Of a DNA stretch of 64,000 bases, positions 42,001 to 54,000 are shown one piece after another. The position numbers are program-made. Position 1 is the first letter of the stretch. The number at the start of each line of letters is the position of its first letter. Location of the stretch: assembly GCA_030264375.1 (NCBI GenBank), contig JASCQW010000119.1, forward strand, positions 9,834,103-9,898,102, read 5' to 3'. The stretch comes from Carcharhinus longimanus. Its lineage: Eukaryota.

Positions 42001-45000
42001 TCAATCTGGATGGCCATAAAACATTAGATAGGGGTCATGGGTAGAGAGGTGGACTGGTGGTGTTGAGATGGTGGCGCGGGCTCGTTGGGCCGAATGGCCT
42101 GTTCCCCGGGCTGATTTTGTTCTTTGTTCTTTGTTCTTTGAAAATATATTTGGACCTTCCCTTCCGATGAAAGAAAATCATTGTCGGGTTGCTACATAAG
42201 TTAAACTTAATTCCATTGTGCTGGGAATCTAGCTCGTACACCTGAAGCAAACATCCACAAAAAATGTTAAGAATGTCTTCATCGGTTGAATATGTTGAAC
42301 AGGAAATGTCACAGTATTCTAGCTGCCGTATTCCAACACAATTAAACATCTGAGAAGTATAGAAAACATTGTAAAGATGGGTCGAAGGCCGGTATGTAAA
42401 TCTGATTCCACTTTTTGGTAGTAGGGAAATAGTGAGCGAGTTATGTAGATGAGGTAGTAGCATGGCATGTTAAAATATGAGAATGCAGTGTGGAAAGAAC
42501 ACGCCTGAGGCGATTTGTTGAAAGTCAGAAGTGACGGTGTTATCGTTTCAATTGCCAATTCAATTCAATTGCTGAGGCTTGCCAAATGTTTACAATCAAT
42601 CTGGACCAGGTGGTCATGGGTGGCTCAGACAACAGCTGAGATTGTGGACTAGCGGGGCTGGAAGCAGCCAGCATATTATATCGGGGATGACAGATTCTGG
42701 TGGCAAGTCAGGCAAGTTGGGAATAGAAGTTTTTAAGAAAGCACAAATTATCAAATCAGGACGGATGAATGCAGTTGTCCGATGGCCATTGTCCATATTT
42801 GCTCCTTAATGTAGTTTCAAGGAACAAACATTTCCGGACTTTTCATCTTTAACTCCCTCACAAGCAAAAACGTAAAAACAAAAAAAAATCATGAGTTTCT
42901 ATATCCCTTGAATATTGCATAACATTTATCATTATCCGATCTTATTACCAACATTTGTGGATACGCAATATAAGAACATAAGAAATAGGAGGAGGAGTAG
43001 GTCATCTAGCCCTTCGAGCCTGCCTCGCCATTCAATATGATCATGGCTGATCTGAAGTGGCTCAGTTCCACTTTCCCGCCTTCTCCCCATAACCCTTAAT
43101 CCCCTTGCCTATCAANNNNNNNNNNNNNNNNNNNNNNNNNNNNNNNNNNNNNNNNNNNNNNNNNNNNNNNNNNNNNNNNNNNNNNNNNNNNNNNNNNNNN
43201 NNNNNNNNNNNNNNNCCAAAGTGGACAACCTCACACTTGCCAACATTAAATTCCATTTGCCAGTTCCTCGCCCATTCGCCCAGCCTATCTAGCTCCCTCT
43301 GCAGACTTTCCACAATCTCTGCACAATTTGCCATTCCACCAATCTTTGCGTTCCACCAATACTTTGGCGGTGCCAATATTATTTGGCTCGCAGGACTAAA
43401 CTGAAAATTTAGATTGCAAACTACGTTACGTTTGACCATATTTTATTTTCATAATAAACAAATGTTACAGCACTGCTCTTTCAGCCTATTTCAGGGCTGT
43501 GCTTAATGTTCTTCGGTTTAATAGATGAACAGAGCAATTTATATGAATCTACCTATGTTGTGTTGTGACCTTTGGCAATTCATCAAAATCGGTTCAATTG
43601 ATACTGTCACCATTTTCCGATCGGCGACCTCTCCGTATTTATTTCATTACGCAGCTCTTGAATTTGGAAAAAAAAGTTAAAAATATTATTCATTCTGTGC
43701 TCCCCAGTATTTGCAACGCAGTTTTGACCCGTGCATGTTGAATCTATTTCACGCTGAACTACAACATCCGAATGATCTCCCTATTCTCGGAAACAGGAAA
43801 GAAGAAACTTCAGAAAGAATTAGGTAACATTATTTTCCAATCTCATATCCCATTTATCTCATTTTCCTGATCTGATAAATATACACTGGACACTTTTCTT
43901 GAAATATTTGAAATACGTCACTTTTTTGAACAGTCAGTGCAAAGGCACAATTTGATAAGATAATAACTTTTGATGAAAGGTGACACCGAGGTGCTTTAAT
44001 ATAAGTGCAGCTACTGGGAGTAATGAGCCAAACTCCACTTTGCATTTCAAATTGTCTTCTTGCAGCGATATTGCCTTTCAGCTCTGCCCCAGGACAATTG
44101 AGAGGAATTGATCCTGGAATGCAGTCAATGTATTTAAATATCATTAAGCTCCATCAGAAGACGCTTTGGCTAACATATTAGCAGTCTAGGCAACGAAGGA
44201 ATACCTGTTGACTTTGAATATCGCCCTTGCAATCTTCAATGTTGGGCTGATAATGGCAAGAAAATTTCCTTTCACGTAAGAGATTGTAATGGAAGTTCTC
44301 AGAAGCAAAGATCCAACTTGTTTCCTATCAAACTCAATTGGATTTCATCTGTGATTCCTCAAAATTTACGACTTTGAACATCAACCGTAAATTTTAATGG
44401 CCTAACTTCATTTTCACTTGATACAAAAAAAACTGTGGTTGAAAGAATAAGAGTAAAGCTTCATGATAAATATCAATGTTCACATTCCCCGGAATCTGGT
44501 CTGCCTTTCAGCACTGAAGCAATGTTCCTGATGACCACTTGTCTGTCCATTCACCGTGAACCTTAATTCCATGATTAATAAAAAAATGACGCAACTCAGT
44601 CTCATACACAAGGACTCTTCTGCACAGTTCTCTGCTGCAAGGACTTTGAAAAGTTTATTCTTTATTGATAGAATAAATTCCTCCTCACCTCAATAATACA
44701 TTTGCGATCTTTTTTTCAGAGATAATGCCTTCTATTCCCCGACAATTCTGCCAAGTCTTTTAAGAATGCGATATGTTTGAATGAAGATCACCTTGGCTTC
44801 TGTCAAATTTCAATGAGTCCTAACATGATTAACCTTTCCTCCTCAGACCATCGCTGCACATCTCAAATCACCCTGGTATAGCTTCTCTGAACTGCCACCA
44901 GTAATGCATTGCATTTCTTGATATCAGGGGATGATAACAGCACACAATATTACCAATGCAGAGCTGCAGATAGATGTCACCACATTTTTTAAACCATCCA

Positions 45001-51000: not shown

Positions 51001-54000
51001 ATCTTCAATGTTGGGCTGATAATGGCAAGAAAATTTCCTTTCACATAAGAGATTGTAATGCAGGTTCTCAGAAGCAACGATCCAACCTGTCTCTGATCAA
51101 ACTCAATTGCATTTCATCAGTGATTCCTCAAAATTTGAGACTTTGAACATCAACATCAACCATAAATTTGAATGGCTAACTTCATTTTCGCTTGATACAA
51201 AAAAAAAACAGAGTTGTTGAAAGAATAAGAGTAAAGCTTCATGATAAATATCAATGTTCATAATCACCCGGAATGTGGTCTGCCTTTCAGCACTGAAGCG
51301 ATGTTCCTGATGACCAATTGTCTGTACATTCACCGTGAACATTAATTCCATTATTAATAATAAGAAAATATGCAACTCAGTCTCTTACACAAGGACTCTT
51401 CTGCACAGATCCCTGCTGCAAGGACTTTGAAAAGTTCATTTTTTTTTGATAGAATAAATTCGTCCTCACCAGAATAACACATTTGCAATCTTTTTTCAGA
51501 GATCATGCCTTCTGTTTCTCGATAATTCTGCCAAGTCTTTTAAAAATGCCATATGTTTCAATGAAGATCACCTTGGCTTCTGTCAAATTTCAAGGAGTCC
51601 TAACATGTTTGCCCTTTCCTTGTCAGACAATAGCTGCACATCTCAAATCACCCTGGTATATCTTCTCTGAACTACCACCAATAAGGCATTATATTTCTTT
51701 GTATCAGGGGATGATAACAGCACACAATATTACCAATGCAGAGCTGCAGATAAATGTCGCCACTTTTTTTCACAGAAACCACCTCAATGTAATGGCCAAC
51801 ATTCCAAGATTGTCTTTGTATAGCTGCTGTAGTTGTGTGAAAGCGTTCTGTGGTCCATGCGCAAGTGTCCACAATTCATTTCGGGTGATAGCATTCTGCA
51901 GCTTTTCTCTCTCTGAATTTCAGTAATACTCTGTAAGATATCAGTATCTTGTCAAATATCCTGAAACCACTCAAATCTTTCATTGTGTTGCGTATTTTGC
52001 TGCAGTATATTCACTTCCTTCCTCCAAACAATTTATACCATCTAAAACGTTGTTGTTCCGGCGCAGATTAGTGCATAAACTCACTGGTAGCATGTCGCTA
52101 AACTGCAAATTGGGTTGTAATCTCATGCGATGTTGCGAGGACATTTATCATTTCTCGTTCGATGTTAATTAACTATGTCTAATACCGTGGGTTCTTACAA
52201 TTAAGCATCAGTGACCTGACGTTCGGAAGATCAAAGATCAGAACAAGTAGATTTCTACATGTTCCGTCATTTCATCCCAATGGTAATATAGCCGTTAAAA
52301 AACTATTACATTTTCGCACATAATGTCCCTTTGGTAAAGTCTTATAATAACAAAGAACAACACAGCACGGGAAACAGGCCCTTCGGCCCAACGAGCCCGC
52401 GCCGCCGTCCCATTGTCTCAGTNNNNNNNNNNNNNNNNNNNNNNNNNNNNNNNNNNNNNNNNNNNNNNNNNNNNNNNNNNNNNNNNNNNNNNNNNNNNNN
52501 NNNNNNNNNNNNNNNNNNNNNNCAACCACCCTGCTCACGCAACCACAACAGGCCGAACACCGAAGAGGTCCAAACCTCAATTCAAGCGCCCAAGTTCCGC
52601 TTACCCAGATGATTCTCACGCCTTGAAGCTACCAAGAGTCTCCACAGGCCTCCAACGGCACCACTGGCTGGGCTGAAACCATCATCGCATGCATTAAGTC
52701 GTCTATATTCAATACAGTTCAACGCATGTATATTTCCCATCTTAACTATCTTACGCTCAGTAAGGAATCCAAATTAGAAATCAGGAAACTATGGAAGTCT
52801 CAAAGCAAACATTCATGTTGCAGTCTCTATGAGCTTTTCAGTTGATGTCAACTCACACACCCATTGAAGGAGACACACCGAAAATAGATGAAGGATTTGA
52901 AAACTATAATTTTACTTACGGGGATGAAACAAAATTCATTCGATGTAAATGCATGGGTGAAATTCCACTTGTAATTGCGCAATGCTTTTGTACACAAATA
53001 TTCAAAATAATTCGACATCTCCCTTGTTCATTAAGGAAACTTAGTTCTGGCTTCCAATAATTCGATTCCTATATTTGAAAGTACACTGCCGATTTTTCAT
53101 TAGCTATTCCTAATCCAAAATGTGGTGGAAACTGACAAGCACGATAAAATTATTATAGTTTCAGCACGATTTCTCTGGTAGTAGCGCTGAAAGTGCCAAT
53201 AAATAAATAAATTTTAAATATTTGCAAATTTCGTGTAACTGCAGTGAAAACCACATCGGACCCAACTGACATGCACCGTCTCCTGAATATATTTAATACA
53301 CTGGCTTCATCCACTTCCTGTGGTAATGAATTGCACAGGTTCACCCCGCTTTGTGTGAATAAATGTCTCCTCATCTCCATTCTAAATGGCCTACCCCGAA
53401 ACATCAGAACATTCCCCCTTGATTTGTTCTCCTCTACCATCGAGAATGTCGTCCTTGCAGCTAGCCTGTCTCGTTATATTCGAAATTCATTAGTCTTATA
53501 CGTTTTCTAATTCGATGGCTATTGTAAGTCCATGCGTCCTCTCCCTCCTTCCTTTCAACTCCTCCTTCCATGGATTGAAACATCCCTAATCCGCCCATGT
53601 GTGCCTGCGCTGAGGCCTTGTGGGCGTCTTCGGATGCTGACACCAAAGAGCTCGGTCGAACTGACATGTCAGCACCACATTGCTGATAGTTATATTCGGA
53701 TTTCACTTGTCTCGTGAGCGTAAGTACAGCTAAATTAATTTGCACTTTCCACATGTCCTTTTTTTATTATTTCAAGCCTTTAAAGATAATGTTCCTCAGC
53801 ATGTCTAAGTTATTCACGTCAATTCTCGTTAGCAGCTCTTGATAAAGTGCTTAATCGAGAATATTTACTTTTTGGGCGTATTTCTATGTTATGGGAAGTT
53901 TGGATCAAATTGCGTTTTTCCAATTGTGCTTTCCAATTGTGATGATTCTTGCTAATTTTTACTTCATATTTATATTCATCCCATGATACAACAAAAAAAG

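What the first reader, a model, noticed from the sequence alone, without database searches (positions are those of the whole stretch)
44091..53615. Tandem duplication spans exons E9 and E10: possible in-frame exon-array growth hidden in a gap
Seen: a ~6.8-kb unit repeated in tandem at roughly 8% divergence in a sampled stretch. Copy 1 contains E9 and E10. The part of copy 2 equivalent to ~45567-49770 is replaced by a CR1 end plus a 100-N gap. Inference: phase 1-1 exons can be duplicated without shifting the frame, so the gap may hide E9' and E10', showing how the array expands.
[Added by the scan's program, not by the reader: the finding's places include an assembly gap (unread letters, written N; its length is only estimated) at 49216 to 49315, 52423 to 52522. 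Whether the letters on both sides are continuous or in frame is not known: test that first.]
Basis: partly seen in the sequence, partly recalled or inferred. Interest (0 to 1): 0.7.

Follow-up and report, generated by a model that had tools for sequence, protein, structure and literature searches.

The report
Real tandem duplication, second copy half unread
A 6.8-kb stretch holding two tiny candidate exons really is duplicated head to tail, but the assembly never read the middle of the second copy, so nobody can yet say whether the two exons were doubled.

Summary
Aligning the window to itself gives 44091-45566 = 50860-52343 (90.1%, 1490 columns) and 49772-50862 = 52523-53615 (91.2%, 1093 columns). 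This is one head-to-tail duplication with a 6769-nt unit; K2P is 0.093 and 0.092.

The end-to-start junction (50862|50863) lies in gap-free sequence and shows a 3-nt AGG microhomology. The copies are therefore neither alleles nor a scaffolding artefact.

Copy 2 loses homology at 52343/52344, exactly where the 3' end of a CR1-like LINE begins and runs into gap 52423-52522. The right edge of that gap looks like an assembler fork. Its first 77 nt equal copy 1 exactly, and gap 49216-49315 carries one 77-mer on both sides. Elsewhere a '100 N' gap hides about 0.9 kb or more. So the counterpart of 45567-49771 is unread, not shown to be deleted.

E9 (45886-45912) and E10 (48623-48658) read as phase 1-1 mini-exons. 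That rests on splice signals alone: 6 of 17 strong donors against a 12.5% base rate, P=0.014. The gene is unidentified. Whether E9' and E10' exist cannot be told here. This is an ordinary kind of event.

The parts
44091..50862 (+). Copy 1 of the tandem unit. It is complete except for a probably spurious 100-N gap.
   Evidence: blastn self-matches. Boundaries come from the in-register comparison.
50860..52343 (+). Copy 2, left part, equivalent to 44091-45566.
   Evidence: 90.07% over 1490 columns; K2P 0.093.
52523..53615 (+). Copy 2, right part, equivalent to 49772-50862.
   Evidence: 91.22% over 1093 columns; K2P 0.092. The first 77 nt are identical to 49772-49848.
50860..50862 (.). Duplication junction with AGG microhomology. 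AGG also stands at 44091-44093 (left boundary) and 53613-53615 (right boundary).
   Evidence: Sequences shown in register; coordinates. The junction lies in gap-free contig 49316-52422.
45567..49771 (+). Interior of copy 1 with no visible counterpart in copy 2. It contains E9, E10 and old LINE remnants.
   Evidence: Homology ends at 45566/52343 and resumes at 49772/52523. No other copy lies in the window.
45886..45912 (+). Candidate mini-exon E9, 27 nt, phase 1-1, with AG before and GTGAGA after.
   Evidence: Donor score 10.6 and acceptor score 0.9 on my own rough consensus matrix. Exon status is unverified.
48623..48658 (+). Candidate mini-exon E10, 36 nt, phase 1-1, A-rich (22% G+C), with AG before and GTGAGA after.
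   Evidence: Donor score 10.6, acceptor score -0.4. Exon status is unverified.
52344..52422 (-). 3' end of a CR1-like LINE inserted in copy 2 at the point equivalent to 45566/45567. Its body runs into the gap.
   Evidence: 86.8% over 68 nt to the LINE tail at 42064-42131. That tail ends in three TTGTTCTT units and follows an ORF2 C-terminus.
52423..52522 (.). Assembly gap that hides the rest of the LINE and an unknown length of copy 2.
49139..49392 (.). Gap 49216-49315 with the same 77-mer on both sides. This is overlapping contig ends, so the gap is probably spurious.
   Evidence: Family D10 at 100%; exact length 77.
47167..47559 (-). Old LINE reverse-transcriptase remnant inside the interior. 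It belongs to an inverted pair, 46326-46591 with 47194-47452, at 75% identity.
   Evidence: tblastn E=1.3e-8 to the RVT_1-bearing frame 26670-27128; blastn.
50401..50736 (-). Old LINE ORF2 C-terminal remnant present in both copies (its twin is at 53156-53473), so it predates the duplication.
   Evidence: BLASTP E=4e-9 and E=2e-6 to other LINE C-termini of the window. It lies within the duplicated segment.
17881..38951 (+). Upstream candidate phase 1-1 mini-exons of the same presumed gene: 17881-17916, 23062-23088, 29402-29428, 34884-34955 and 38922-38951.
   Evidence: Splice signals and open frame only.
56859..63373 (+). Weaker downstream candidates: 56859-56882 (24 nt) and 63347-63373 (27 nt).
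   Evidence: Splice signals only.

Best explanation
A real and not recent head-to-tail duplication of about 6.6-6.8 kb lies inside what looks like a + strand gene built of tiny symmetric exons.

The proposed sequence of events is this. A non-homologous join at a 3-nt AGG microhomology placed a second copy of 44091-50862 directly behind the first. The copies then drifted apart by about 9%. Later a CR1-like LINE inserted into copy 2 at the point equivalent to 45566/45567.

The short-read assembly behaves like a de Bruijn graph with k of about 77. It broke inside that LINE, as it did at almost every LINE in the window. It restarted at a 77-mer that the two copies share.

The counterpart of 45567-49771, and with it any E9' and E10', is therefore unread rather than shown to be absent. 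The most likely state is that it exists in the genome behind the LINE.

Shown: the duplication, its junction, the equal divergence of both segments, the LINE end at the break, and the 77-mer edges.

Inferred: the order of events, the assembler's k, that the interior of copy 2 survives, and that E9 and E10 are exons.
For: - **Duplication.** Two co-linear matches at 90.1% and 91.2% have K2P 0.093 and 0.092, which fits one event.
- **Junction.** It is read in gap-free contig 49316-52422. AGG is shared by the left boundary, the junction and the right boundary.
- **Indels.** In 2.57 kb of visible alignment they are small: 9 events in 20 columns and 2 events in 2 columns. The LINE is the only large difference seen.
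- **Left break.** Homology stops to the base where the LINE tail starts.
- **Right break.** The first 77 nt after the gap equal copy 1 exactly, with a mismatch at nt 78. No other exact run in the visible alignment exceeds 58 nt.
- **Same number again.** The other gap in the finding carries one 77-mer on both sides.
- **LINE-linked gaps.** 9 of the 10 100-N gaps abut LINE sequence. 6 of the 8 gap-adjacent LINE tails enter the LINE by 72-80 nt.
- **Gap size is a placeholder.** At gap 10715-10814 the flanks are the 3' tail and a motif that, in the ungapped copy at 26247-27128, lies upstream of the RT domain. That gap hides about 0.9 kb or more.
- **Exons.** 6 of 17 strong + strand donors close a phase 1-1 mini-frame, against a 12.5% base rate (P=0.014), and 0 of 7 do so on the - strand.
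Against: - The 77-mer says only that the right gap edge is not a breakpoint. It does not say how far homology runs into the gap.
- A deletion starting at the LINE and ending anywhere left of the equivalent of 49772 gives the same picture.
- At 9% divergence the interior of copy 2 should have assembled as its own contig of about 3.6 kb. No such sequence is in the window.
- Two exact runs of 77 nt or more only 633 nt apart are unexpected at uniform 9.06% difference: 0.39 expected per unit, P(2 or more)=0.06. So either divergence is patchy, or the fork at 49139-49215 has another cause.
- Exon status is weakly supported. Acceptor scores are poor (0.9 and -0.4). E10 is A-rich low-complexity sequence (22% G+C). 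The excess of strong donors on the + strand (17 against 7) is not significant (P=0.064).
- The splice matrix is my own approximation, not a trained model.
- No homologue, domain or RNA family was found.
Confidence: 0.65

Rival explanations
1. Copy 2 truly lacks the interior. A deletion, either coupled to the LINE insertion or arising later, removed the counterpart of 45567 to about 49.7 kb, including E9' and E10'. The gap then hides only LINE sequence and a short stretch of copy 2.
For: The LINE 3' end sits exactly at the left break, and its body points toward the missing part. That is the geometry expected of an insertion-coupled deletion; this mechanism is recalled from work on L1 and was not looked up. 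No second copy of the interior appears in the window. In the four 100-N gaps where both flanks are LINE (10715, 14352, 41895, 60547), the gap need hide only LINE.
Against: Such deletions are, from recall, a small minority of LINE insertions. All other indels between the copies are tiny. The right gap edge is a k-mer fork, not a LINE junction. A contig ending at a LINE junction would be expected to run about 72-80 nt into the LINE, as 6 of 8 others do.
Confidence: 0.2
2. False duplication. The two 'copies' are haplotypes, or an assembly or scaffolding error, and the genome has one copy.
For: Gaps lie inside both copies, and small contigs (6000, 3107 and 4268 nt) are joined by placeholder gaps. 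Ko et al. 2022 (PMC9516828; passages read) list gaps between duplicated pairs as a mark of false duplications.
Against: The end-to-start junction is inside one gap-free contig, 1.5 kb from the nearest N. So there is no gap between the pair at the junction. The 8.7% substitutions plus a private LINE insertion are far beyond what I would expect of alleles; that is an inference. Copy 1's two contigs overlap by an exact 77-mer, while copy 2 differs from both. Read depth could not be tested.
Confidence: 0.03
3. The duplication is real but touches no coding sequence. E9 and E10 are chance AG...GT frames in A-rich intronic or intergenic DNA, so nothing about exon arrays follows. This can hold together with any of the other readings.
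For: Both frames are very short. E10 is 22% G+C and lysine-rich simply because it is A-rich. 12.5% of random GT sites already close such a frame. Pfam found nothing convincing in 223 of the window's 230 frames of 65 aa or more, nor in 4 exon-bearing frames.
Against: Strong donors closing phase 1-1 mini-frames are enriched on the + strand only (6 of 17 against 0 of 7; P=0.014). The candidates are spaced 3-7 kb apart and all end in G. Most begin with bases that complete a Glu or Asp codon.
Confidence: 0.4
4. More than two copies. The left and right parts of 'copy 2' belong to different units, and the gap hides one or more further whole units.
For: Nothing links 50860-52422 to 52523-53615 except the scaffold. 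Both differ from copy 1 by the same amount. Gap size is a placeholder.
Against: There is no positive evidence, and two copies suffice for all that is seen.
Confidence: 0.08

Closest known systems
Intragenic tandem duplication that doubles symmetric exons in frame, the classic route to exon arrays and to mutually exclusive exons. The literature is recalled. My search listed one paper, PMC2394523, seen only as a listing.
   Same: It is a head-to-tail unit of a few kb that includes whole candidate exons with their splice sites. Both exons are multiples of 3 nt in the same phase, so a doubled cassette would add 63 nt without a frame shift.
   Different: The second copies of the exons are not visible. 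The exons themselves are unverified. No transcript evidence exists.
False (heterotype) duplications in draft assemblies (Ko et al. 2022, PMC9516828; abstract and passages read).
   Same: It is a duplicate next to its source in a gap-rich short-read scaffold.
   Different: The pair's junction has no gap. Divergence is about 9% with a private LINE insertion. Depth and read-pair criteria could not be tested.
LINE insertion-mediated deletion (described for L1; recalled, not looked up).
   Same: A LINE 3' end sits exactly at one edge of a missing 4.2 kb, oriented toward it.
   Different: The LINE's 5' junction is unread. The far edge of the missing part is a k-mer fork, not a junction.
Genes made of many tiny exons that encode charged, Lys/Glu-rich segments, for example triadin. 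TRDN has 41 exons and a KEKE motif (PMC3363337; passages read). Elastin and non-fibrillar collagens are recalled as arrays of small split-codon exons.
   Same: There is a run of 24-72-nt candidate exons, 3-7 kb apart, all in one phase and rich in Lys, Glu and Gln.
   Different: No homology was tested or could be tested. The resemblance is from memory and is a lead only. No transmembrane or domain exon was found.

Membership tests
Tandem (head-to-tail) segmental duplication | Two copies in direct orientation and co-linear | tested here: met
   Two + / + matches with offsets 6769-6781 and 2751-2753.
Tandem (head-to-tail) segmental duplication | End of one unit joined directly to the start of the next, in read sequence | tested here: met
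   The junction at 50862|50863 lies inside gap-free 49316-52422.
Tandem (head-to-tail) segmental duplication | Same divergence along the unit (one event) | tested here: met
   K2P 0.0926 and 0.0916. The 100-column identity profile runs 83-95 throughout.
False heterotype duplication (Ko et al. 2022) | Assembly gap between the duplicated pair | tested here: not met
   There is no N between the end of copy 1 and the start of copy 2. The gaps lie within the copies.
False heterotype duplication (Ko et al. 2022) | Half read depth, haplotype-specific k-mers, discordant read pairs | not testable with these tools
   No reads are available.
CR1-like LINE 3' end | Homology to the 3' tail of a LINE that follows an ORF2 C-terminus | tested here: met
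   86.8% over 68 nt to 42064-42131, with the alignment. That tail lies downstream of frame 41660-41893, which carries the LINE C-terminal motif.
CR1-like LINE 3' end | Ends in short direct repeats of about 8 nt rather than poly(A) (a hallmark recalled from the CR1 literature) | tested here: inconclusive
   The relative at 42.1 kb ends in three TTGTTCTT units. The insert itself shows one unit plus an imperfect one, and no poly(A).
CR1-like LINE 3' end | ORF2 endonuclease and RT of the CR1 clade | not testable with these tools
   The body lies in the gap. Only a sub-threshold RVT_1 match exists, on another copy (21.1 bits against a cut-off of 29.6).
In-frame exon-cassette duplication | Exons symmetric in phase, with lengths that are multiples of 3 | tested here: met
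   27 and 36 nt, open when the first two bases complete a codon.
In-frame exon-cassette duplication | Exons are real (transcribed or conserved) | tested here: inconclusive
   There is only splice-signal enrichment, P=0.014.
In-frame exon-cassette duplication | Second copies of the exons present and spliceable | not testable with these tools
   The counterpart region is in the gap. No copy lies elsewhere in the window. Filling the gap from other sources was barred.
LINE insertion-mediated deletion | LINE 5' end abutting the distal deletion breakpoint | not testable with these tools
   The 5' end is unread.
Triadin-like KEKE mini-exon gene | Sequence homology to triadin or junctin | not tested

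The most novel reading that the evidence does not exclude
A Lys/Glu-rich gene built of symmetric mini-exons has been caught in the act of growing. A two-exon, 63-nt in-frame cassette (E9 and E10) was doubled by one microhomology-mediated tandem duplication. Both cassettes are still spliced. Patches of gene conversion keep the copies alike, as suggested by the two exact runs of 77 nt or more, 633 nt apart, in copies that otherwise differ by 9%.
Probability: 0.12. Interest if true: 0.45.

Novelty: new member of a known kind. Interest (0 to 1): 0.2.

Why it matters
If E9' and E10' exist and are spliced, this would be a clean, datable example of how arrays of tiny symmetric exons lengthen a protein by whole cassettes. 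That mechanism is accepted but is rarely seen with its junction intact.

As it stands, the practical lesson concerns the assembly. In this window the '100 N' gaps are placeholders that hide kilobases, mostly LINE bodies. One gap is spurious, because its contig ends overlap. Gap edges can be k-mer forks between paralogous copies. Gene models and copy counts built on such a scaffold can therefore miss or miscount exons.

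Tried and rejected
**Gene identity**
- I sent the largest candidate exon alone (23 aa, 34886-34954) to the search for homologous proteins. I did not lengthen it.
- I built and searched no joined exon model.
- Pfam was run on 223 of the window's 230 stop-to-stop frames of 65 aa or more. The 7 left out lie in the CCTT microsatellite at 24.2-25.5 kb.
- That scan gave two sub-threshold matches only: RVT_1 at 26670-27128 (21.1 bits, cut-off 29.6) and PWP3A-B_C at 9059-9253 (16.8 bits, cut-off 27).
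- Pfam on 4 exon-bearing frames gave one sub-threshold match: DUF1947, E=0.019, 15.6 bits against a cut-off of 22.5.
- Rfam at gathering scores gave 0 matches. ARAGORN found 0 tRNAs.
- The ESM Atlas gave no usable hit for the 241-aa frame at 49368-50090.

**Other ideas dropped**
- I asked whether the flat substitution spectrum (ts/tv 0.69) marks the duplication as artificial. Two of the three other repeat pairs checked in the window show ratios at or below about 1 (26:35, 62:58); the third (4:4) is too short to weigh.
- I asked whether unequal crossing-over between repeats made the duplication. No homology exists between the left flank and the unit's end beyond AGG.
- I asked whether the right boundary sits at a repeat edge. 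By eye, the old LINE remnant seems to run across it. No tool confirmed this.

**Limits of the methods**
- My first splice scan used thresholds so strict that E9 and E10 themselves failed. I relaxed the thresholds afterwards, so the exon list depends on my own rough matrix.

**Unchecked**
- No eukaryotic genome or transcript collection was on hand.
- The single genome-contig scan and the structure and complex tools were not used, because they do not bear on the question.

Full report
**What the window is.** It has 64,000 bases at 39% G+C, with 17 runs of N: ten of 100, five of 10, one of 36 and one of 23. I do not take it for human. It carries a young, high-copy LINE family whose 3' tails are 92-98% alike (7 copies) and end in 8-nt repeats. 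That I recall as typical of CR1-type elements, and the tail sequence as typical of cartilaginous fishes. The taxon was not tested, and I did not try to find the source.

**The observation.**
- The repeat finder and blastn of the window on itself both give 44091-45566 = 50860-52343 (90.07%, 1490 columns).
- They also give 49772-50862 = 52523-53615 (91.22%, 1093 columns). Both matches are + on +.
- Global alignment of the first pair gives 1342 matches, 51 transitions, 77 transversions and 9 gap events. The second pair gives 997, 40, 54 and 2.
- K2P is 0.0926 and 0.0916, and the identity profile is even at 83-95 per 100 columns. This is one event, not a patchwork.
- The unit is 6769 nt in assembly coordinates.
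Both lie inside the 4.2 kb (45567-49771) that has no visible partner.

**The junction.**
- The left flank ends ...CCCCAGG (44087-44093), and the unit goes on ACAATTG.
- The end of copy 1 reads ...GCGCTGAGG (50854-50862), followed by ACATTTG, which is the start of copy 2.
- The end of copy 2 reads ...GCGCTGAGG (53607-53615), followed by unrelated sequence.
- This is a head-to-tail join at a 3-nt AGG microhomology, with no longer homology between the left flank and the unit's end. It lies in gap-free sequence 1.5 kb from the nearest N.
- That excludes alleles and a scaffold misjoin as the source of the repeat.
- Of the four marks of false duplications listed by Ko et al. 2022 (PMC9516828; passages read), the one I can test is a gap between the pair. 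It is not met at the junction.

**The two gaps, tested first.**
- Gap 49216-49315 has exactly the same 77 nt on both sides. The contig ends overlap, so probably nothing is missing and 177 positions are artefact. The true unit would then be about 6592 nt.
- Gap 52423-52522 is a different case. On its left, homology to copy 1 stops at 52343. From 52344 to 52422 runs the reverse complement of a LINE 3' end, 86.8% identical to the tail at 42064-42131 (alignment).
- That tail ends in three TTGTTCTT units and follows a LINE ORF2 C-terminus at 41660-41893.
- The LINE's tail sits at the break and its body points into the gap. So a LINE inserted in copy 2 at the point equivalent to 45566/45567.
- On the right, the first 77 nt after the gap are identical to 49772-49848, and nt 78 is a mismatch. 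Nowhere else in the visible alignment is there an exact run longer than 58 nt.
- The number 77 appears twice. In addition, 6 of 8 gap-adjacent LINE tails enter the LINE by 72-80 nt. This is what a de Bruijn-graph assembly with k near 77 leaves behind; that is an inference.
- The right edge of the gap is therefore an assembler fork at a 77-mer shared by the two copies. It is not a biological breakpoint.

**How much can '100 N' hide?**
- 9 of the 10 100-N gaps abut LINE sequence. The tenth is the overlap artefact.
- At gap 10715-10814 the left flank is the LINE's 3' tail. The right flank encodes a motif that matches 26247-26387 (E=1e-5).
- In that ungapped copy the motif lies upstream of the RVT_1 match at 26670-27128. 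So about 0.9 kb or more is hidden in that '100 N'.
- Gap 60547-60646 looks the same, with an early RT motif on the left and the tail on the right.
- The gap length is a placeholder, so 4.2 kb plus a LINE body would fit.

**What this does and does not show about E9' and E10'.**
- A plain LINE insertion followed by assembly failure explains everything seen. All other indels between the copies are tiny. I therefore put roughly 0.7 on the interior of copy 2 being present in the genome.
- The 77-mer, however, does not tell how far homology runs into the gap.
- A deletion from the LINE to any point left of the equivalent of 49772 fits too, and the LINE's orientation suits an insertion-coupled deletion (recalled from L1 work).
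- The interior should have assembled at 9% divergence, yet no trace of it is in the window.
- Two exact runs of 77 nt or more, 633 nt apart, are unexpected at uniform divergence: 0.39 expected per unit, P(2 or more)=0.06. This hints at locally higher identity, perhaps conversion, or at another cause for the first fork.

**Are E9 and E10 exons?**
- E9 (45886-45912, 27 nt) and E10 (48623-48658, 36 nt) are each preceded by AG and followed by GTGAGA. Each is open when its first two bases complete a codon, which is phase 1-1.
- Like candidates lie on the + strand at 17881-17916, 23062-23088, 29402-29428, 34884-34955 and 38922-38951. Weaker ones lie at 56859-56882 and 63347-63373.
- They are 3-7 kb apart and all end in G. 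Most start with bases that complete a Glu or Asp codon, and they are rich in Lys, Glu and Gln.
- I scored donors and acceptors with a rough splice matrix of my own.
- With it, 6 of 17 strong + strand donors close such a mini-frame, against 12.5% of ordinary GT sites (P=0.014). On the - strand the count is 0 of 7.
- The excess of strong donors on the + strand, 17 against 7, is not significant (P=0.064).
- Acceptors are weak, and E10 is A-rich low-complexity sequence (22% G+C). I put about 0.6 on the exons being real.
- The unit holds both exons with 1795 nt before E9 and 2201 nt after E10. A full second copy would carry complete splice signals and add 63 nt in frame.

**Gene identity.**
- This was not resolved.
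- Pfam found nothing above its cut-offs, either on 223 of the 230 frames of 65 aa or more or on 4 exon-bearing frames.
- Rfam and tRNA scans were empty.
- A triadin-like gene is a recalled lead only. TRDN has 41 exons and a Lys/Glu KEKE motif (PMC3363337; passages read).

**History inside the unit.**
- An old LINE C-terminal remnant (50401-50736, minus strand) is in both copies, so it predates the duplication.
- The interior holds an RT remnant at 47167-47559 and an inverted 75% pair.
- The LINE at 52344 is private to copy 2 and came later.
- I give no date, because I have no substitution rate for this genome.

**Verdict.**
- Multiplying my estimates (interior present about 0.7, exons real about 0.6, second cassette still spliceable about 0.4 or less), the full claim stands near 0.15.
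- The event is an ordinary kind, a new instance of an intragenic tandem duplication. Interest is low to moderate.

Noticed in passing
window 10715-10814, 13376-13475, 14352-14451, 17454-17553, 32129-32228, 41895-41994, 43116-43215, 52423-52522, 60547-60646: Nine of the ten 100-N gaps abut LINE sequence. Seven tails of one young family are 92-98% alike and end in TTCTTATG repeats. The assembler broke in almost every young LINE copy, and at least the gap at 10715 hides about 0.9 kb or more.
   Followed up: partly
window 44091-45566 / 50860-52343 and 49772-50862 / 52523-53615: The substitution spectrum between the copies is nearly flat: 91 transitions against 131 transversions. CpG positions differ only slightly more often (14.1% and 11.1%) than other positions (7-10%), although the window's CpG o/e is 0.67. 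Two other repeat pairs show similarly low ratios (26:35 and 62:58). This is unexplained.
   Followed up: partly
window 49368-50093 (+): A 241-aa stop-free frame in C/A-rich sequence has no Pfam or Atlas match. A 1-nt indel near 49853/52605 ends the frame early in copy 2, so it is not conserved between the copies.
   Followed up: partly
window 24368-25183: About 800 nt of degenerate CCTT microsatellite (204 units, 65% matches) gives long spurious Ser/Pro/Leu/Phe frames on the + strand and Lys/Glu/Gly/Arg frames on the - strand.
   Followed up: no
window 26247-27128 (+): This is the most complete LINE body in the window. It has a sub-threshold RVT_1 match (E=2.9e-4, 21.1 bits against a cut-off of 29.6), and related remnants lie at 47167-47559 (-) and 43215-43328 (-).
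   Followed up: partly
window 9059-9253 (+): A weak, sub-threshold Pfam match to PWP3A-B_C (E=0.0068, 16.8 bits against a cut-off of 27). The translation does not look convincing, and the match is probably chance.
   Followed up: partly
window 14821-15178 and 63624-63977: An inverted pair of about 360 nt at 65% identity, probably two old copies of one repeat. The second overlaps a 196-aa open frame at 63378-63968.
   Followed up: no
window 34884-34955 (+): This is the largest candidate exon of the presumed array (72 nt). At 61% G+C it stands out from the 39% background. It is Gln/Pro/Ser/Glu-rich rather than Lys-rich.
   Followed up: partly
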